DNA from: a virus
Taxonomy: Duplodnaviria; Caudoviricetes
IMG/VR virus record: IMGVR_UViG_3300029288_005871
Coordinates: 18,384-82,383 of that record
Length of the DNA: 64,000 nt
Direction: 5' to 3' (one strand)
Position 1 is the first letter of the stretch, and each line of letters opens with the position of its first letter. Made by a program: the position numbers and the translations under genes. A model generated the notes under the pieces. The model saw only the letters and a list, made by a program, of their open reading frames with translations, searched no databases and was not told the origin of the DNA. Below, piece by piece: positions 3,991 to 37,217 of the stretch.

Positions 3991-4449
3991 TCAAGCCTGA
4001 ATTATCCCTAAAACGGTTGTGCCGGATATTGTCACTACTGACACAGGTTTATTTACCCAAACCTTCTCCATAACCTCACCTGAATCCAACCGATAACCGC
4101 CATTCCTGCCAGTTGTTAAATAACATTCTATCCTGCCTTGGTTCTTAAAAGTAGCAAACCTACCACTACTTATATCCTTAAAAAGAGCCACAGGCTCAGT
4201 TGAAACAGACACTTCAGCAATTATTGTTTCGTGCATTGAAATTTTCACAAAATCCACCAGATAGTCACGAAAATCATTCAAAAAGTCAAAATAAATATGT
4301 TTTAAATCACTTCTTCTTTTGATGGATTCACTGACTTCTTTATTATTGTCTAAATCACTATACATTTGTTCATTCATTAACATCATTCTCCTGTCCAAAT
4401 AGCTCCTTCTATTGTCGTTGGTAATACTGGCAATAGGAAACATCGGCAA
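3991..4449 (-). CDS. hypothetical protein
   Basis: ORF track, operon context. Confidence 0.6.
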   Translation of the reverse strand: MPMFPIASITNDNRRSYLDRRMMLMNEQMYSDLDNNKEVSESIKRRSDLKHIYFDFLNDFRDYLVDFVKISMHETIIAEVSVSTEPVALFKDISSGRFATFKNQGRIECYLTTGRNGGYRLDSGEVMEKVWVNKPVSVVTISGTTVLGIIQA

Positions 4450-6389
4450 TTTAGATGTTGAATAGGAGCAGTTACTCCACCTGGAAATTCATCCCCAACT
4501 TTTATTGACCCAACTGCCTCATTTACTAAGCAGATTTCACAATTGTGAACTACCATTCCATTTACAGTATAACTTTGATCTTCCTCTACAGTTAAATTAT
4601 AAACTATTTGTCCTGGAAAATTTTTTGTTCTTGGTTTAAGTTGCCACTTATCTAGTTTTCTAATTGCAATTGGCAAGATACAATTCAACTGTTTAATTTT
4701 ACTAGCTACTTCAAAAAAATTATTTCTAATTTGTTGACTAGAAAATCTTAATATATTTATTCCATTTTCCTTAAACCATTGATCTTTTTCTTCATCTTTT
4801 TTTTGGATATCTTTCAAATTATGAAAAAACCCATCACATTCTATAACAGTCTTTATTGATGGTAAATAAAAATCCGCCCATCCCCATTTACCATTATATT
4901 TATAAAACCATTGAGGAATAAAATTTATATTTTCTTTTATTAAAAACCATCTCATTTTCTTTTCTATAAAAGTATATCCAAGATGATTTTTACCTAAAGA
5001 TTTATGAGCAAGTTTTAACACTTCTTCTTTCCTTTTTTTATCACCATTAATTATTTTAAATGGATGATTAGGATATTTAGCTGTCCTACAATTATTTCTT
5101 ATATATATTTCTCTAAATTTTTCTTCACTATTCCATCTTTTTTTTATTGTTTCTGATGCCTTCTTTCTGGCTAAAACATATTTATATGGGTTTTTAATTA
5201 AATCAATCATCTGAGCTTTCTTCATTAATTTTACTTTTTTATACTTTTTATTAAACATTATTAATCTTTCTTTCTCTCCTTCTCTTTTCCACTTTTTCTT
5301 ATTAAACTTTTTTGTAGAACAAGAATTACATATACTACTAGTGAAAGGAATAATTTTCCCACAGATACATTTTTTCCCTATAAAATAAACCATGTCAGAA
5401 GATAATAAAGATTTAGCCTCACACCATATATCTTTTCCCTCTCTTTTTATTAAAATTGGATGTTCATCTGTTACAGTCATTTTTGCCCCACTTCTACAAA
5501 TACCTCTTGTTTTTAAAAATATCCTTACTACTTTACCTGTATACGATCTTTTGAATTTTTTTATTACTTTTTTATATCTATCTTTATGTGTTAAAACAAA
5601 ATCACCAATTTCAATATCTTTTATATTTTTAAAACCGTTTAATGTAGAAACTTTTGCATTCCCTCCTAGAATACAAGTCCTTTCATCCTCGCTCGTCACC
5701 CATTTATGTTTCTCAATTTTATTCCTTTTATAAGTTTCCAGTTCTACCATCCCCATCGCATTCCCTAATTCCGTTTCAGTTATCAACTGTGACCTTTCCC
5801 TAATCATCTTTTCGCTTTCTTTCTTTAAATATTTGGTTATTTCCTCAGTTGTCAAACCTAAAGCCAATCCCTCTTCTAAAACATTAACCACCCATCTCTG
5901 GGTGGTCTTATCAACCACACCTGTTAAAAAATCAGCCCTTTGTGACAGTTTATTTTGGATCTCTAAATTATTCAACTCAAAATTATGGTCAGGTATCATC
6001 TTTTCCAAAGCTGATTTTCCTCCCTGACTGCCCGCCCAAAGCAGGAAAGTTAAAATAGTAGCCTTCTCACCATCTAACTGCTCACTTAAAGCCAGCCAGA
6101 TTAACCCTAACCCCACTAATAAGTTTGGGTTTTCAATCTTTTGTCTCTCACCGATTAAACCTTGGATTTTATCAACTGTCGCCACATGGCTGATTTGTCT
6201 CTTTAAAGCTTTTTCTATTTTGTTTTTAAATTCTTCAGCTTCTTTCTTCTTTAAAGCCTGATGCAAAAAAATATTTATACCTGCGGCATAAAAATACCTT
6301 TGTAAAGATCTTTTAACCAGTCGCAAAGCATCGGGAGGCTGATTCAACAGAGTTTTTTTGTCCGTCAAGGATGTTATCAATTTCATCAT
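4383..6389 (-). CDS. head morphogenesis protein (SPP1 gp7/Mu F-like) with intein
   Basis: Downstream of portal; A.LI.ETEL..A, WVTSEDERT|C..C and PIQHLNCRC motifs. Confidence 0.85.
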   Translation of the reverse strand: MMKLITSLTDKKTLLNQPPDALRLVKRSLQRYFYAAGINIFLHQALKKKEAEEFKNKIEKALKRQISHVATVDKIQGLIGERQKIENPNLLVGLGLIWLALSEQLDGEKATILTFLLWAGSQGGKSALEKMIPDHNFELNNLEIQNKLSQRADFLTGVVDKTTQRWVVNVLEEGLALGLTTEEITKYLKKESEKMIRERSQLITETELGNAMGMVELETYKRNKIEKHKWVTSEDERTCILGGNAKVSTLNGFKNIKDIEIGDFVLTHKDRYKKVIKKFKRSYTGKVVRIFLKTRGICRSGAKMTVTDEHPILIKREGKDIWCEAKSLLSSDMVYFIGKKCICGKIIPFTSSICNSCSTKKFNKKKWKREGEKERLIMFNKKYKKVKLMKKAQMIDLIKNPYKYVLARKKASETIKKRWNSEEKFREIYIRNNCRTAKYPNHPFKIINGDKKRKEEVLKLAHKSLGKNHLGYTFIEKKMRWFLIKENINFIPQWFYKYNGKWGWADFYLPSIKTVIECDGFFHNLKDIQKKDEEKDQWFKENGINILRFSSQQIRNNFFEVASKIKQLNCILPIAIRKLDKWQLKPRTKNFPGQIVYNLTVEEDQSYTVNGMVVHNCEICLVNEAVGSIKVGDEFPGGVTAPIQHLNCRCFLLPVLPTTIEGAIWTGE
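4542..5675 (-). mobile_element. intein (378 aa) with DUF559/Vsr-like endonuclease
   Basis: Begins CILGGNAKV, ends VYNLTV...VVHN followed by Cys; internal DFY...VIECDG..H...KD..KD.W...G..ILRF. Confidence 0.9.
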
Positions 6390-20660: not shown

Positions 20661-22014
20661 GATTATTTTCTAAAGCAGGGGTTCCTGCCTCTGTTATAAA
20701 TGAACGAATTCTTCTGGCTCTTAATATCCTTCTTAACCTGTAACTTCCTCCTGACATTTGCCTCTGGAATTCCTCCCAACTTACCGTTTCAAAATCAGTC
20801 CTGTTTAAAAATACTTTATCTAATTGGCCACCAACTCTGGCTAAATACATTTCTCCATGATCCCTTGTTACAACCAGATTTATTTCCTCAATTAGCCTTT
20901 CACCTTCAGGCATACATAACCTTAAATAATGTTCTGATGAAAAATTAGTCAAACCAAATCCCCTGAAAGTGTCAAATAATTCAGCTCTAGTTTCATCATA
21001 TCTGACATTAGACGGAGGCAAAGTCGAAGTCAACCAATTACTAACAGAATAACTTCCACCTCCACCTCCACCTCCAATAGAACTAAAAGTTTCTTCTAAA
21101 CTTGAAGAAGTTAATCTATCACTTGTTGATTGGATAGTACTCGTTGATACTGATGGAGATGTAGAAACTCCTGACATAGAAATTGATATTAACCTTGCCT
21201 CTCCCATTGTACCTATTTTATTTCCTTTTTCATCTTGGTCATATCTTTCAAAACAGTAATTATCAGGCTGTCTTTTAGCGTGTTTAAAAAAATCACCCCA
21301 GCTTTTTACATAACCGGCATCAATATTCGGGCTGGAGATATAATCTATCAGGTCAACAATCAGTTCATAATAATCCTTTTCCTTAAACTCCTTATCAATA
21401 TCATTTTTCAAGTTTCCCCAGCAAGGATGAGTATTATTGATTGTCGGACTGTCATAACCACCATCATGACGCTTGGTAATATTTAAAATTTCAATTCCTT
21501 GGTCAAAACTACTTTTAGAAAAATCTATACGTATCTGGAAAACTCCTAATTCTTTTGCCCTTAACCATTTATCGGCTTTTACTTTTATCAATCTGGTAGT
21601 CACAACCAACCTTTTTTTAGTATCAACTTCTATCTTTTCCACCAAAGTGTTCAGTTTTAACTGAGTAATTAATTTTCTATGTTCCTCTACTAATTCCGAA
21701 CGCTTGGTTTGCATCAGCTTTTTATATTTTTCTTCCAGTTGGCCTTTAGTCTTAGCTATAGTCTTTAACTTTTTATCCAATTCCTCCATTTCTTTACCTT
21801 GCCTGTCAACCTTATCCTTTATTTCTCCAGCCCTTTTCTTGGAAAAATCAGTTATCAGCTTAACTACCTTCTCTTCACCATTACCCTTACCCTGCTGAGT
21901 AGTTTTTTTACCTTTTGCCTCAGCAGGGGGGTTAGCTAACCCTGTATAATTTTCAGGATTACCATTAGTTAAAACTTCATTAATTTTTTGATAAAAACCC
22001 GCAATTGCCGCCAT
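20644..22014 (-). CDS. prokaryotic E2-like protein with N-terminal coiled coil and Ser/Gly linker
   Basis: LGVFQIRID...PTINNTHPCWGNL resembles the prokaryotic E2 HP..CxGN active site; lies between Ubl and JAB. Confidence 0.65.
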   Translation of the reverse strand: MAAIAGFYQKINEVLTNGNPENYTGLANPPAEAKGKKTTQQGKGNGEEKVVKLITDFSKKRAGEIKDKVDRQGKEMEELDKKLKTIAKTKGQLEEKYKKLMQTKRSELVEEHRKLITQLKLNTLVEKIEVDTKKRLVVTTRLIKVKADKWLRAKELGVFQIRIDFSKSSFDQGIEILNITKRHDGGYDSPTINNTHPCWGNLKNDIDKEFKEKDYYELIVDLIDYISSPNIDAGYVKSWGDFFKHAKRQPDNYCFERYDQDEKGNKIGTMGEARLISISMSGVSTSPSVSTSTIQSTSDRLTSSSLEETFSSIGGGGGGGSYSVSNWLTSTLPPSNVRYDETRAELFDTFRGFGLTNFSSEHYLRLCMPEGERLIEEINLVVTRDHGEMYLARVGGQLDKVFLNRTDFETVSWEEFQRQMSGGSYRLRRILRARRIRSFITEAGTPALENNHETAF

Positions 22015-30482: not shown

Positions 30483-31363
30483 TAACGGTCATACCTGTCC
30501 CTCATGCCGCCTTTTTCTGGGTGGAAACTCTTAATCGCAAAAGACTGGAACTCATCCCATTCTGGAATATGACCTCTGGTAACATCCATATTCAACCAAC
30601 GGGTGAGGGTAAAATACATCGTCTTATGCCTTGGATACAACCGCTTCATCTCTCCTCCTTTAACCAGTTCCAAAAGCTCGGAATGCTTTCTCAAAACATA
30701 TTCCAACCAGATACGGTTATTGCAGGCAATGTTATAAAGTTCCTGGTTGGTACAGGGAACCATGGCTGTTTTTGCGGAAAGAGGTTCACTTTCAACATTT
30801 ACCTTTTTCTTTTTTATGTTGTTTTTTTGTTTGACTGAATTGGGGGAACCGTTTGTGGAAAGGGGGCTTTTTTGGAGGGGTAATATGTATTTTACAAGAG
30901 GGGGGGTATTATTAATATATATGGGGGGAGATTTAGGGGAACCTTTTTTGCCAGCTAGTAGGCTTTTTCCTACTAGTAGGCTTTTTCCTACTACCCCCTT
31001 GGAATAAGAATGGGGCTTTATAAAGCCAAAAACCCTGCCTACTAGTAGGCTTTTTCCTACTACCCATCGAGAATATGTTGTATTGAAGCTCCAAACCTTA
31101 GTACCTAGTAGGCTTTTTCCTACTAGTAGGCTTTTTCCTACTAGCTGATCCAAAATTTCCTTTACTGACGGTCTGGAGATGTGGGTAAGTTTTTGAAAAT
31201 CTGTCAAAGAAATGGCATTTTCTTTTTTACCTTCTCCAAGTGTTTTTAAAAGCACCACCCAAATGACTTTCCATTCATTTCCAGACAAATGGAGAGAACA
31301 TAGCTTTTCAGCTATTTTAGGAGATATAACGATACTGCCATTTTCTATCTGGGCATTTTCCAT
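30449..31363 (-). CDS. phage replication initiator (lambda O-like)
   Basis: N-terminal wHTH LS..EWKV...L.KT.G..K; internal iterons. Confidence 0.75.
   Translation of the reverse strand: MENAQIENGSIVISPKIAEKLCSLHLSGNEWKVIWVVLLKTLGEGKKENAISLTDFQKLTHISRPSVKEILDQLVGKSLLVGKSLLGTKVWSFNTTYSRWVVGKSLLVGRVFGFIKPHSYSKGVVGKSLLVGKSLLAGKKGSPKSPPIYINNTPPLVKYILPLQKSPLSTNGSPNSVKQKNNIKKKKVNVESEPLSAKTAMVPCTNQELYNIACNNRIWLEYVLRKHSELLELVKGGEMKRLYPRHKTMYFTLTRWLNMDVTRGHIPEWDEFQSFAIKSFHPEKGGMRDRYDRYWASLKEKGIV
30955..31140. repeat. five 18-bp iterons CTAGTAGGCTTTTTCCTA (putative origin)
   Basis: Copies at 30955, 30973, 31042, 31105, 31123 inside the initiator gene. Confidence 0.85.
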
Positions 31364-34481: not shown

Positions 34482-34510
34482 TTGACAGGTTGATTTTCCT
34501 ATGTTATATT
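34482..34510 (+). promoter_or_regulatory. sigma70 promoter opening the rightward block
   Basis: TTGACA-N17-TATATT with extended TG. Confidence 0.75.
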
Positions 34511-34554
34511 ATATAAGAGATTAAAAGTTATAAGTTTAAGAAAGCACTAAAAAC

Positions 34555-34749
34555 ATGATACAATTTATAGATTTCATACCTCATATTTTAATAGTATTAT
34601 TCTTTTTTATCCTCATAGTAACAGGTATCAACAGCGTTGATTATAGACCTCAACAGCTTAAACCCAATTATTCCAAGAAAAACAAAAAGACTACCAGGCT
34701 TATTCCCATTCATTCAAAGGACGGGCTTACTTATCTTGAATTAAATTAA
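34555..34749 (+). CDS. small membrane protein
   Basis: N-terminal TM. Confidence 0.55.
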   Translation: MIQFIDFIPHILIVLFFFILIVTGINSVDYRPQQLKPNYSKKNKKTTRLIPIHSKDGLTYLELN

Positions 34750-34754
34750 ACAAG

Positions 34755-34940
34755 GTGGTGATATTTATGGACTATGTACATATAAACATTAAAGTATCTA
34801 GGAATTCATCAAATAAGCTAGGAATTATTATTTTATCAATCTTTACTATTTATATGCTTTGTCAATTCAGCAGAGCATGGGGCAGTAAAGAAGGTTACAC
34901 ACAAGCTATAAATGAGTTAAGAATAGAACAAGGCAAGTAA
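34755..34940 (+). CDS. small membrane protein
   Basis: Central TM; followed by a conserved hairpin. Confidence 0.55.
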   Translation: MVIFMDYVHINIKVSRNSSNKLGIIILSIFTIYMLCQFSRAWGSKEGYTQAINELRIEQGK

Positions 34941-35062
34941 AGCTTTGACTATTGGCTTCGTATTCTTAACATACGAGGCCAAAAGCTAAAACTTTAAAAA
35001 CTAGCACATTAATAATTTAATACTATCAACCCTATAAACTAGAGCAAGCGGGAAGGATTAAA

Positions 35063-35152
35063 ATGTCTAAAAAAGACTATACAAAAATAGCGGATATCTT
35101 TAAAAATAACCGCTTTAATAGTAGAAAATTTAAAGAGTATATAGAACAATAA
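35063..35152 (+). CDS. 29-aa ORF (not in track)
   Basis: GGAAGG SD; MSKKDYTKIADIFKNNRFNSRKFKEYIEQ. Confidence 0.5.
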   Translation: MSKKDYTKIADIFKNNRFNSRKFKEYIEQ

Positions 35153-35293
35153 GCAGATTATAAACTTACCTATCTAGTGGTGAGCTTGTCGAACCATTAA
35201 ATAGGCTCATTACAAAAAGTTATAAATCGCTTGCTCTGATTTATGGGGTTGATAATCACTGGCAGATATAAGGGTATAGCGGGAAGGTAAAAC

Positions 35294-35596
35294 ATGACTG
35301 AATACTATAAATTAGTTATTGATAAAACAGCTCGACCAATGGGAAATAATAAGGAATGGTCAAGATACGATCAGGAAATAAAATACTTTAAAAGTATAGA
35401 GGAAGCAAAAAAATATGTAAAAGATCAATATTTTTATTGCAAAACAAAGTACAAAACTTTTAATGATAATGAAGAAGGCCAAACTGGTTGGATTTATGCT
35501 TTTAAAAGTGATCCCGCTAGTTATGATGATTGTAAACATTATGAACAACACTGGATAAACTTATTTAGAATACATTCAAAACCATGTTTATTCTAA
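35294..35596 (+). CDS. hypothetical protein
   Basis: GGAAGG SD; enclosed by IR pair 2. Confidence 0.75.
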   Translation: MTEYYKLVIDKTARPMGNNKEWSRYDQEIKYFKSIEEAKKYVKDQYFYCKTKYKTFNDNEEGQTGWIYAFKSDPASYDDCKHYEQHWINLFRIHSKPCLF

Positions 35597-35671
35597 AACA
35601 TTTATAGCTATACCCTTATATCTGCTAGTGATACTTATATCTTTATACCTGGCAAGCTAGGAAGGAAAACC

Positions 35672-35992
35672 ATGCACAACGAAACAATAAACATATGGAC
35701 TGCTGGAGCGTTAGAAACCCGTAAAATATCTATTGTAAACAATGCAACCGATATTTTAGAGCTGATAAAAATAGGCAAGAAGCTAAATAATTTCTATACC
35801 CATTCATGTAATGGGTATAATTCAGAGAAATATGATCGTTTAGCTTTAAAATGGGAGAAAAAAGCCCAAGAGATAACCAAACGTATGAAAGTATATATTT
35901 ACTTTCAAACTGACCCAAGAGGCGGAACTATCTATATAGATAATAAACCAATACCAAACAATAATTATACGCAAGCTGTATTTTTAGGATAA
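35672..35992 (+). CDS. hypothetical protein
   Basis: GGAAGG SD; YFQTDPRG motif; enclosed by IR pair 3. Confidence 0.75.
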   Translation: MHNETINIWTAGALETRKISIVNNATDILELIKIGKKLNNFYTHSCNGYNSEKYDRLALKWEKKAQEITKRMKVYIYFQTDPRGGTIYIDNKPIPNNNYTQAVFLG

Positions 35993-36122
35993 TAAATAAG
36001 CCTTGCGGGATAGCTTGAGTTCGCAAGGCTTCAAGCTATCCAATAAAAAACAATATTAAAACATTAAATAGCTTGCCAGATATAAAGATATAACAATATA
36101 AACAAAAGGGAGGTGATTATAT

Positions 36123-36731
36123 ATGATTTTAGATAAAAAAATTATGGGTGTTTGTTCGATAGCTTCAACAGATGAAACACGGCCTATTCTAACAGGTGTA
36201 TTACTAAAAGATAACAAGGCTATTGCAACGGACGGTTATTCACTTATTGAAACAGAATTGCCACATATTGACAATGTGGAAACTAAACTGCCTCCAACGG
36301 GCAACCAATATATAAACGGCGAAACCATGCTTATATCAGCTGTGCAATTATCTAAAGTTCTTACTAATATTCCGAACAAACCGAAGCTACCTATTTTAGG
36401 TTACGCTTGGACTGCTAAAAGTTCAAATGAAAAAACCGTTAAAATTGTATCAAGCGACTTGGAAACAACAAACGCACCGGAAATAATGACTATTGAAGGT
36501 AATTATCCAGATTATAACAAAGTTAAACCTGTAACAGAAGTTAAAGCTAAAATAACGGTAAACGCTAAATATCTTATAAAGCTTTTACAGGCTGTCATTA
36601 AAACAGATCCCGATCAAATCAATAATATTGTAACAATCGAGGTTCGATCAGAAAAAGAACCAATAGTTATCAAAAACGGTAACGGGGAAAATTCAAAAAC
36701 TTATGCTATGCAAATGCCTTGCAGAGTTTAA
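36123..36731 (+). CDS. DNA polymerase III beta-clamp-like protein (short, about two domains)
   Basis: ASTDETRPILTGV, IATDGY.L, EGNYPDY..V.P, VNAKYL. Confidence 0.75.
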   Translation: MILDKKIMGVCSIASTDETRPILTGVLLKDNKAIATDGYSLIETELPHIDNVETKLPPTGNQYINGETMLISAVQLSKVLTNIPNKPKLPILGYAWTAKSSNEKTVKIVSSDLETTNAPEIMTIEGNYPDYNKVKPVTEVKAKITVNAKYLIKLLQAVIKTDPDQINNIVTIEVRSEKEPIVIKNGNGENSKTYAMQMPCRV

Positions 36732-36904
36732 GGCTTTACTATAACCATCTGTTACAGGTGGTTATAGATAAAATCTTAAATTTCTAAAATTAAAATAATG
36801 CTAGTAAAACCTTATAGTAAATTTAGGCTCAAAGCTAAAGGCAACCGAAATCCCGTCCTACAGCTTTTAGGCCACTAGCCTATAGAATTGGAGGTGATTA
36901 AATT

Positions 36905-37084
36905 ATGGACTACTATTATAGACAATACTTAAAAAGGCATAATCTTGACCAAACCACTACATCAACTAATAAGTCAATAGACGTATACAAACAACTAAGC
37001 GACTACGATAAACCTAAAAAAGAAAGATGGCTTGATAGCGCAATCAACAAGATCAATAACGGCTACCTGATCGAGACTTATTGA
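36905..37084 (+). CDS. small hypothetical protein (59 aa, not in track)
   Basis: GGAGGTGA RBS; MDYYYRQYLKRH... Confidence 0.6.
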   Translation: MDYYYRQYLKRHNLDQTTTSTNKSIDVYKQLSDYDKPKKERWLDSAINKINNGYLIETY

Positions 37085-37091
37085 CTACCAT

Positions 37092-37130
37092 AAAACCACT
37101 GGCTATTTTTAATCCGGCTGGTGGTTTTTT
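37092..37130 (+). terminator. intrinsic terminator
   Basis: AAAACCAC...GTGGTTTTTT hairpin with U-tract. Confidence 0.55.
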
Positions 37131-37157
37131 ATTCCTTCTTTTACCTTGCTCTACCTC

Positions 37158-37186
37158 TTGACTTTCTTATTATAATATGTTATTAT
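37158..37186 (+). promoter_or_regulatory. sigma70 promoter
   Basis: TTGACT-N17-TATTAT with TG. Confidence 0.65.
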
Positions 37187-37217
37187 ACTTACAACAATAG
37201 TTTAATGGTTTTAAAAC

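What the first reader, a model, noticed from the sequence alone, without database searches (positions are those of the whole stretch)
35024..36093. Three consecutive genes, each looped out by its own 25-27 bp stem
Seen: the pattern arm-GGAAGG-N6/7-ATG-ORF-stop-arm' occurs three times with unrelated arm sequences. The stems abut (35254/35255; 35632/35635), forming a cloverleaf with a gene in each loop. Three of the five mismatches are G-U compatible on the plus transcript. These ORFs use a GGAAGG SD, unlike the AGGAGGTGA of their neighbours. Established: rRNA precursors use such flanking stems for RNase III excision. Inference: each mRNA is cut out as a stem-closed, stabilised (possibly circularisable) unit, or the IRs mark invertible or mobile DNA cassettes. 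I know of no named system with this layout for phage mRNAs.
Basis: partly seen in the sequence, partly recalled or inferred. Interest (0 to 1): 0.8.

Follow-up and report, generated by a model that had tools for sequence, protein, structure and literature searches.

The report
Phage genes each wrapped by RNA stems
Three neighbouring early genes of an uncultured phage are each enclosed by their own 25-27 bp stem, which evolution has kept paired in related phages, so the phage probably folds and cuts its first messages the way bacteria handle ribosomal RNA precursors.

Summary
Three abutting inverted repeats (25-27 nt, 89-96% complementary) each enclose one small ORF with its GGAAGG ribosome-binding site. 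They are the only inverted repeats with at least 20 matches in the 82-kb virus record, and shuffled sequence gives almost none.

Related metagenomic phages (L009, L008, L210, L208, L011, L007) show the same layout. Their stems are private, 14-26 bp long and joined by linkers of -1 to 2 nt (L208 only on a by-eye extension). The arm sequences differ from the window's but still pair. The homologous first stem shows 10 double compensatory changes and no single ones. Mismatches favour G.U on the sense strand (23 against 9, p = 0.01). Enclosed genes always point with the operon.

A conserved boxA-like motif (TAGCAC-N-TTAACA; exact GCTCTTTAACAA in one relative) lies just before the first stem, after a hairpin, as in rRNA operon leaders.

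I read these as RNA leader-trailer-type helices, probably cut by host RNase III into end-clamped single-gene messages. Cleavage, Nus involvement and the host are untested.

Its "unrelated arms" is only partly right, because the arms of stems 2 and 3 are related.

This scan noted similar layouts before on other phage DNA. I found no paper describing it.

The parts
34482..34510 (+). Sigma-70-type promoter of the rightward early operon (TTGACA-17-TATATT with TG)
   Evidence: It scores 11 of 12 and lies opposite a perfect leftward promoter at 34096-34067.
34938..34996 (+). Bulged hairpin (12-bp upper stem plus outer stem) in the boxB-like position before the motif
   Evidence: dG -22.1 kcal/mol, z -4.55, 0 of 200 shuffles as stable.
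35004..35015 (+). boxA-like motif GCACATTAATAA, preceded by TA, 8 nt before stem 1
   Evidence: The motif GCWCNTTRAYA was found 9 times against 2.4 expected in this phage and its relatives. It lies 0-12 nt before the first stem in L007, L008, L011, L208 and L210. It matches 9 of 11 positions of the gamma-proteobacterial consensus GYTCTTTAANA (PMC5725501).
35024..35050 (+). Stem 1, 5' arm
35051..35056 (+). GGAAGG ribosome-binding site of ORF1
   Evidence: read directly.
35063..35152 (+). ORF1, 29 aa. Its N-terminus is homologous to a 63-aa protein in L009.
   Evidence: 8/14 identical, E 2e-4. The same position inside stem 1 in L009.
35177..35213 (+). Hairpin in the 3' UTR inside loop 1. The two ends of this UTR are conserved with L009.
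35228..35254 (+). Stem 1, 3' arm
35255..35280 (+). Stem 2, 5' arm. It starts at the base directly after stem 1.
35282..35287 (+). GGAAGG ribosome-binding site of ORF2
35294..35596 (+). ORF2, 100 aa. A conserved phage protein of unknown function with the motif YDDCKHYEQHW.
   Evidence: No Pfam or PHROG family. AlphaFold model with pLDDT 84 and no PDB fold match.
35607..35632 (+). Stem 2, 3' arm
35635..35659 (+). Stem 3, 5' arm, 2 nt after stem 2. It is a diverged direct copy of the stem 2 3' arm.
35660..35665 (+). GGAAGG ribosome-binding site of ORF3
35672..35992 (+). ORF3, 106 aa, with homologues at 43-80% identity in other metagenomic phages
36008..36041 (+). 12-bp hairpin in the 3' UTR inside loop 3. 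It overlaps an alternative hairpin, 36001-36008 with 36024-36031.
   Evidence: z -4.0. The alternative hairpin was read directly.
36069..36093 (+). Stem 3, 3' arm
36123..36731 (+). Next gene of the operon (sliding-clamp-like), outside the stems, with a canonical GGGAGGTGAT site

Best explanation
The three inverted repeats are long-range RNA helices in the first rightward (early) transcript of the phage. Each helix pairs the leader of one cistron with its trailer. Each gene, with its weak GGAAGG ribosome-binding site, therefore sits in its own closed loop. The three helices meet at one junction.

The layout copies a bacterial rRNA operon leader: promoter, hairpin, boxA-like motif, then the 5' strand of a leader-trailer helix.

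Inferred mechanism:
1. RNA polymerase picks up host Nus factors at the boxA-like motif. This keeps transcription going over poorly translated RNA and holds the leader close until the trailer emerges.
2. The 25-27 bp helices form.
3. Host RNase III cuts both strands of each helix.
4. Single-gene messages are released whose 5' and 3' ends stay paired in a half-helix and so resist exonucleases and 5'-end-dependent decay.

Shown here: the repeats are real, non-random, conserved as pairings and biased as expected for sense-strand RNA. The motif is conserved in position.

Inferred: Nus binding, RNase III cleavage and stabilisation.
For: 1. These are the only three inverted repeats with at least 20 matches in the 82-kb record, and they are adjacent. 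Shuffles give about 0.05 per genome.

2. The same architecture occurs in independent assemblies. L009 has three stems of 25-26 nt with linkers of -1 and 2 nt. L008 has two stems with a 2-nt linker. L210 has three stems with linkers of 2 and 1 nt. L208 has two stems. L011, L007 and L018 also have stems.

3. The arms are private. Pairing with the own partner arm averages 22.4 pairs, against 11.8 with other arms.

4. Compensatory evolution. For homologous stem 1, window against L009: 13 pairs unchanged, 10 changed on both sides with pairing kept, 0 changed on one side, 3 broken. L208 and L210 stems also differ by paired changes.

5. Transition mismatches are G.U on the sense strand 23 times and A.C 9 times over 18 stems (binomial p = 0.010).

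6. All genes enclosed by the stems point the same way as the operon.

7. Stem length of 25-27 bp fits the idealised 22-bp RNase III substrate (PMC3867540). It also falls in the 25-40 bp range of 16S leader-trailer helices (PMC10250234).

8. The hairpin (z -4.55), the boxA-like motif and the first 5' arm come in the same order as boxB, boxA and boxC. The motif is enriched (9 found against 2.4 expected). It directly precedes or overlaps the first stem in six of seven stem-bearing loci. In L009 it lies about 150 nt upstream. One relative has an exact GCTCTTTAACAA.

9. An rrn leader of Flexilinea carries GAACCTTGACAA. This shows that natural boxA variation covers the phage variant.
Against: No RNA data exist.

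The host is unknown, so its RNase III and its own boxA cannot be checked. The motif was not next to rRNA genes in five candidate genomes.

The window's motif differs from the E. coli-type consensus at 2 of 11 positions.

Only stem 1 has a motif in front of it. Stems 2 and 3 have none.

The stems are not tied to particular genes. The ORF2 homologue is clearly enclosed in 3 of 9 loci. The ORF3 homologue is enclosed alone only in the window.

The G.U bias rests on partly related stems, so p = 0.01 is approximate.

Both strands fold about equally well.
Confidence: 0.55

Rival explanations
1. The helices are real RNA structures but act on translation rather than on processing. The 5'/3' pairing either masks or presents the weak ribosome-binding site, as in the 5'/3'-UTR pairing of S. 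aureus icaR. Alternatively, it isolates each cistron as its own folding domain so that its start site stays open. No cleavage is required.
For: In L009 the 5' arms of stems 2 and 3 include the purine-rich site itself (GGGAAT, GAGG). Enclosed genes have weak, non-canonical sites, while their neighbours have AGGAGGTGA. The covariation and G.U bias fit any RNA function.
Against: In the window the GGAAGG sites lie just outside the helices and are not paired. Near-perfect helices of 25-27 bp are far longer than needed to mask a site and would be RNase III substrates anyway (PMC3867540). Some stems enclose loops without an ORF: L008 with 132 nt and L211 with 126 nt. Others enclose two genes (L011, L208, L210).
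Confidence: 0.2
2. The repeats act in DNA. They would be the ends of mobile or exchangeable gene cassettes, or recombination sites that invert each gene.
For: The enclosed genes are accessory and vary between relatives. The same gene is enclosed in some phages and not in others. Repeats of 25-27 bp resemble transposon terminal repeats in length. The arms of stems 2 and 3 are related in swapped order, which hints at duplication or recombination.
Against: The arms differ between units and between phages, so no shared recombinase site exists. No target-site duplications flank the units (read directly). No enclosed gene is found inverted in any related locus. Homologous stems change by paired substitutions with a G.U bias on the sense strand, which DNA sites would not show. 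Cruciforms with 177-409 nt loops are not expected in duplex DNA (own knowledge). No recombinase was seen among the neighbouring genes scanned.
Confidence: 0.07
3. The repeats are neutral by-products, for example of template-switch replication errors, and have no function.
For: The distribution among relatives is patchy. Broader phage loci carrying a DUF8033 gene show only about twice as many long-range repeats as shuffles (29 against 13).
Against: Pairing is kept through 10 double changes in stem 1. Arm length and the 0-2 nt abutment recur in most of the independent loci, by eye in L208. The position after a conserved motif also recurs.
Confidence: 0.03

Closest known systems
Leader-trailer helices (RNase III processing stalks) around 16S and 23S rRNA in bacterial rrn operons, made by the boxA/Nus antitermination complex (PMC10250234; PMC5725501)
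   Same: Long-range helix of 25-40 bp between the sequences flanking a functional RNA. The flanks are variable and maintained by covariation. A hairpin and a boxA-type motif precede the 5' strand. The length suits RNase III.
   Different: The cargo here is a protein-coding cistron with its ribosome-binding site (or a short non-coding loop), 130-800 nt long. Several helices abut with 0-2 nt linkers. Only the first helix has a boxA-like motif, and that motif deviates from the E. coli consensus. No boxC-like conserved strand was seen. Cleavage and Nus dependence are untested.
RNase III sites of phage T7 early mRNA (R0.3, R0.5, R1, R1.1, R1.3); own knowledge, general RNase III rules from PMC3867540
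   Same: A host RNase III would cut a polycistronic early phage transcript into single-gene messages, and the retained duplex would stabilise the ends.
   Different: T7 sites are local bulged hairpins between genes. Here the two strands of each helix lie on either side of the gene, so both ends of the product would stay paired to each other. The local bulged hairpins further along this operon (36730-40335) look more like the T7 type.
5'/3'-UTR pairing in bacterial mRNAs: S. aureus icaR and B. subtilis hbs
   Same: A long-range interaction between the leader and trailer of one mRNA affects its fate. RNase III is involved for icaR.
   Different: Those pairings are short, cover the ribosome-binding site and occur in single genes. 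Here there are arrays of near-perfect 25-27 bp helices that leave the site free in the window.
Archaeal pre-rRNA processing stems with bulge-helix-bulge motifs, cut by the splicing endonuclease and circularised by RtcB (own knowledge)
   Same: Long processing stems enclose an RNA. The phage also encodes an RtcB ligase (44119-45273).
   Different: The stems here have no bulge-helix-bulge motif. Promoters and terminators are bacterial. RNase III products (5'-P, 3'-OH) are not RtcB substrates.
DNA cassette systems: integron attC cassettes and T4-type PeSL promoter/stem-loop cassettes (own knowledge)
   Same: Small accessory genes are individually bracketed by repeats in a variable early region.
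   Different: attC and PeSL elements are shared, local elements that lie between genes. In PeSL they are direct repeats. The arms here are private, inverted and gene-enclosing, and they evolve by compensatory change.

Membership tests
RNase III processing stem | Uninterrupted double helix of about two turns (22 bp) or more | tested here: met
   Helices of 27, 26 and 25 bp with 1-3 non-Watson-Crick pairs. The 22-bp ideal substrate is from PMC3867540.
RNase III processing stem | Staggered cleavage of the helix by RNase III in vivo or in vitro | not testable with these tools
RNase III processing stem | An RNase III is available, from host or phage | tested here: inconclusive
   No RNase III or dsRBD domain in the 82-kb record, which is 73% complete. 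The host is unknown.
rrn-type leader-trailer helix with boxA | Long-range helix formed by the sequences flanking the RNA and maintained by covariation | tested here: met
   Stem 1, window against L009: 10 double changes, 0 single. Own-arm against cross-arm pairing: 22.4 against 11.8 pairs.
rrn-type leader-trailer helix with boxA | boxA (GYTCTTTAANA in gamma-proteobacteria) shortly upstream of the 5' strand | tested here: inconclusive
   The window has GCACATTAATA (9 of 11 positions) 8 nt before stem 1. L011 has an exact GCTCTTTAACAA. The motif is conserved in position in six of seven related loci. The host's boxA is unknown. The motif was not rrn-linked in five candidate genomes.
rrn-type leader-trailer helix with boxA | Dependence on NusB/NusE and the antitermination complex | not testable with these tools
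   This needs genetics or binding assays.
Transposon or MITE-like cassette with terminal inverted repeats | The same terminal repeats in all copies, and target-site duplications | tested here: not met
   Arms are private to each unit. There are no flanking direct repeats, and the units abut one another.
Invertible DNA segment | Both orientations present among genomes, and a recombinase nearby | tested here: not met
   Every enclosed gene in the related loci is co-oriented with its operon. No recombinase family was found among the neighbouring ORFs scanned. The sampling is limited.
Archaeal-type BHB stem with RtcB circularisation | Bulge-helix-bulge motif (3-nt bulges around a 4-bp helix) in the stem | tested here: not met
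   The stems are continuous and have no bulges.

The most novel reading that the evidence does not exclude
Each cistron is not only cut out. Its clamped ends are then joined, by the phage's own RtcB or by a host ligase, after cleavage by a nuclease other than RNase III. This would give circular or covalently closed early mRNAs that resist host exonucleases. Circular mRNAs made in this way have not, to my knowledge, been described in a bacteriophage.
Probability: 0.04. Interest if true: 0.9.

Novelty: new variant of a known kind. Interest (0 to 1): 0.62.

Why it matters
How phages shape the stability and stoichiometry of their first messages is known in detail for very few models. The main one is T7, with its local RNase III hairpins.

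A conserved design in which single genes are wrapped in private leader-trailer helices behind an rRNA-type boxA signal has two implications. First, phages would borrow the cell's rRNA transcription and folding machinery for protein-coding RNA. Second, they would make end-clamped messages.

The idea is directly testable by end mapping, RNase III digestion and compensatory mutants. It would give a portable design for insulating and stabilising cistrons. It would also explain why this scan keeps finding private inverted repeats around small early genes in unrelated phages.

Tried and rejected
- Cultured relatives. blastn of 34500-37500 against 50,697 phage records found no match. The large terminase is only 24-28% identical to the best-matching cultured phages, mostly Firmicutes myoviruses (Bacillus, Lactobacillus), so no cultured relative or host emerged.

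- Host and boxA test. The closest RtcB homologues are in Chloroflexota (63%), but the hits are spread over many phyla. The motif GCWCNTTRAYAA occurs in five candidate genomes at about background level, except in one Chloroflexota MAG (32 against 16 in the control). Eight loci checked were not next to rRNA. Two real rrn leaders were read. Flexilinea has GAACCTTGACAA. A Patescibacteria MAG has ATTGACAA. The result is suggestive only.

- Function of the enclosed proteins. No Pfam or PHROG family matched. The ORF2 model (pLDDT 84) has no PDB fold match.

- Rfam found nothing between 34000 and 41000.

- A promoter inside stem 1 (TTAATA-18-TATAAA) was considered. It fails the scan's criteria and is absent in relatives.

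- The exact GCTCTTTAACAA at 40338 overlaps the T-tail of a minus-strand terminator, so I do not count it as evidence.

- L014 gave a significant duplex score, but it carries two similar local hairpins either side of the gene, not a private long-range stem.

- Seventy-five wider phage loci carrying a DUF8033 gene show only a two-fold excess of long-range repeats (29 against 13), many of them AT-rich.

- The 30-nt repeat at 21329/21804 lies inside a 456-aa ORF and was set aside.

- Phage-encoded RNase III or dsRBD: none found.

Full report
**What is there**

The window is part of an 82,383-base IMG/VR virus record, estimated 73% complete. It is a tailed phage with portal, large terminase, tape measure, PrimPol-DnaB and RtcB genes.

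Divergent promoters at 34096-34067 (minus strand) and 34482-34510 (plus strand) open a rightward operon of small genes.
- S1: 35024-35050 with 35228-35254.
- S2: 35255-35280 with 35607-35632.
- S3: 35635-35659 with 36069-36093.

The arms are 27, 26 and 25 nt long, with 3, 1 and 1 non-Watson-Crick pairs. The linkers between stems are 0 and 2 nt.

Each 5' arm is followed by GGAAGG, six bases and an ATG. The ORFs encode 29, 100 and 106 aa. Genes outside the stems use AGGAGGTGA-type sites.

In the whole record these are the only inverted repeats with at least 20 matches and a 60-1500 nt loop. Twenty Markov shuffles produced one such repeat in total. The minimum-energy and centroid folds of the 1.1-kb RNA contain all three stems.

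The arms of S2 and S3 are related in swapped order: S2 5' to S3 3' is 16/19 identical, and S2 3' to S3 5' is 13/16. I cannot explain this arrangement. It may record a duplication.

**Relatives**

ORF2 has 12 homologues and ORF3 has 6 in the 5.8-billion-protein set. Their contigs come from independent assemblies (JGI, Logan, ENA, including Hainich groundwater).

The layout recurs in these loci:
- L009: the ORF1 and ORF2 homologues and an unrelated third gene sit in three stems of 25-26 nt, with linkers of -1 and 2 nt.
- L008: two stems of 25-26 nt, 2 nt apart. One encloses a 132-nt loop with no ORF.
- L210: three stems (15, 23 and 24 nt) with linkers of 2 and 1 nt. The first encloses the ORF3 homologue plus a second gene.
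- L208: two stems, 10 nt apart as scored. By my reading, the second extends by about 8 bp with one bulged base, which leaves a 2-nt linker.
- L011, L007 and L018: one or two stems each.

Arm sequences differ from locus to locus, and each arm pairs only with its own partner. The mean is 22.4 pairs with the own arm and 11.8 with foreign arms.

Stem 1 is homologous between the window and L009. The same gene lies inside, and the inner stem end and UTR ends are conserved. Of its pairs, 13 are unchanged, 10 changed on both sides and stayed paired, none changed on one side only, and 3 are broken in one genome.

The stems are not bound to particular genes. The ORF2 homologue is clearly enclosed in 3 of 9 loci. 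The ORF3 homologue is enclosed alone only in the window.

**RNA or DNA**

Five observations point to RNA of the sense strand:
- Over 18 stems, transition mismatches are G.U on the coding strand 23 times and A.C 9 times (one-sided binomial p = 0.010). Some stems are related, so this figure is approximate.
- Every enclosed gene is co-oriented with its operon.
- The arms are private, so there is no common recombinase site.
- No target-site duplications are present.
- Loops of 130-800 nt would not extrude as cruciforms in duplex DNA (own knowledge).

Both strands fold about equally well, so folding energy does not decide the question.

**Context: a layout like an rRNA operon leader**

A significantly stable bulged hairpin lies directly before stem 1 at 34938-34996 (z -4.55). 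It is followed by TAGCACATTAATAA at 35002-35015, then 8 nt, then the 5' arm.

The motif GCWCNTTRAYA occurs 9 times in this phage and its relatives, against 2.4 expected. Eight of the nine copies are in the sense of the early operon. Its position relative to the first stem is as follows:
- L008: 12 nt before the stem.
- L208 (GCTCATTAACA): 5 nt before the stem.
- L210 (GTACCTTAACAA, after a terminator-like hairpin): 7 nt before the stem.
- L007 and L011: overlapping the start of the stem. One of the two L011 copies is the exact E. coli-type GCTCTTTAACAA.
- L009: about 150 nt upstream.

The gamma-proteobacterial boxA consensus is GYTCTTTAANA (PMC5725501). A real rrn leader of Flexilinea reads GAACCTTGACAA. 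The phage variant, with A at position 3 and a free position 5, therefore falls within natural boxA variation.

In E. coli the 16S leader-trailer helix is 25-40 bp long, is supported by covariation and is preceded by boxB and boxA. boxA bound to NusB is thought to hold the leader at the polymerase until the trailer emerges (PMC10250234).

The order hairpin, motif, 5' strand, cargo, 3' strand is the same here. This lead came from earlier notes of this scan on other phages. I tested it on my own loci. The conservation of the motif holds. Its identity as a Nus site stays inferred, because the host is unknown and the motif was not rrn-linked in five candidate genomes.

**Mechanism proposed**

I commit to the following.
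1. The early transcript is made by a polymerase modified at the boxA-like site. This would also explain how weakly translated cistrons escape Rho.
2. Each leader pairs with its trailer into a 25-27 bp helix. That is long enough for the 22-bp idealised RNase III substrate (PMC3867540).
3. Host RNase III cuts both strands.
4. Each released message keeps a half-helix joining its two ends. This should hinder 3' exonucleases and 5'-end-dependent decay (own knowledge of 5' and 3' hairpin protection).

The 0-2 nt abutment would leave no single-stranded spacer between units and would allow the helices to stack.

The phage encodes no RNase III or dsRBD in the part available.

The bulged local hairpins between later genes of the same operon (36730-40335) resemble T7-type RNase III sites. 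That fits an operon that is processed throughout.

Shown here: structure, conservation and strand bias. Inferred: every enzymatic step.

**Rivals**

A translational role of the pairing is the main rival. In L009 two 5' arms include the purine-rich site itself. Against it, the window's sites are unpaired, and some stems enclose no ORF or two genes.

DNA cassette and inversion models fail the tests above.

Circularisation by the phage RtcB is chemically mismatched with RNase III ends, and the stems lack bulge-helix-bulge motifs. I keep it as a low-probability novel case.

**Comparison and novelty**

The parts are known: RNase III stalks, boxA, and T7 early mRNA processing. What is not described in any paper I could find is their use as private, abutting, gene-enclosing helices around phage protein-coding cistrons.

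Earlier AI notes of this scan report similar layouts in unrelated phages. If real, the phenomenon is probably widespread. I class it as a new variant of a known kind.

**Limits**

There are no RNA data, no host and no cultured relative. The sets of relatives are small. The enclosed proteins are of unknown function.

Noticed in passing
window 44119-45273 (-): The phage encodes a full-length RtcB RNA ligase (Pfam E 8e-112). Its closest genomic homologues are in Chloroflexota (63% identity), with others spread over many phyla. It probably repairs tRNA or other RNA. It is relevant only to the speculative circular-RNA idea.
   Followed up: partly
window 4383-6389 (-): A Mu F-like head protein appears to be interrupted by an intein. 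The Intein_splicing/Hint domains and a DUF559 endonuclease-like domain lie in one 667-aa ORF.
   Followed up: no
window 36730-40335 (+), also 34938-34996: Bulged hairpins sit between the later genes of the same operon. Their outer arms are conserved (AAGGCTTGACTT ... AAGATGAGGCTT) and their inner stems are variable but paired. They look like T7-type RNase III or other processing sites. This is the subject of another note of this scan.
   Followed up: partly
window 40338-40349 (+) and 40582-40570 (-): An exact GCTCTTTAACAA lies on the plus strand after the last hairpin of the operon. It overlaps the T-tail of a minus-strand terminator (40381-40352). TAGCACATTAACA lies on the minus strand directly in front of the AGGAGGTGAT site of a small leftward gene.
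   Followed up: partly
window 36001-36043 (+): Two interleaved, mutually exclusive hairpins lie in the 3' UTR of ORF3 (GCCTTGCG/CGCAAGGC and GGATAGCTTGA/TCAAGCTATCC). A similar interleaved pair follows the ORF2 homologue in L007 (4290-4330).
   Followed up: no
window 30952-31147: Several copies of the palindromic unit TAGTAGGCTTTTTCCTACTAG lie within about 200 nt, inside a listed 304-aa minus-strand ORF. They may be an origin, an iteron set or a terminator array.
   Followed up: no
window 35255-35280 / 36069-36093 and 35607-35632 / 35635-35659: The arms of stems 2 and 3 are related in swapped order (A ... A' then A'* ... A*). Weaker alternative pairings are therefore possible, such as 35603-35624 with 36077-36098 at 82%. 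Their origin is unexplained.
   Followed up: partly
window 35063-35152; L009 2651-2842: ORF1 (29 aa) shares its first 14 residues with a 63-aa protein in L009 and looks like a shortened version. The sequences just after its stop (TAAGCAGRTTATAAAC) and just before the 3' arm (AAGTTATAAAY) are conserved. Loop 1 may therefore carry a conserved RNA element.
   Followed up: partly
L147/L148/L156 about 1020-1271; L191 1919-3038: Other phages carrying a DUF8033 gene also have long-range repeats. One is 35 nt (33 matches) around a 182-nt loop with no ORF. Another is a perfect 24-nt repeat around three ORFs.
   Followed up: no
L008 713-896; L211 1812-1981: Stems of 22-26 nt enclose 126-132 nt loops with no ORF. 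These are possible small RNAs released by the same route.
   Followed up: partly
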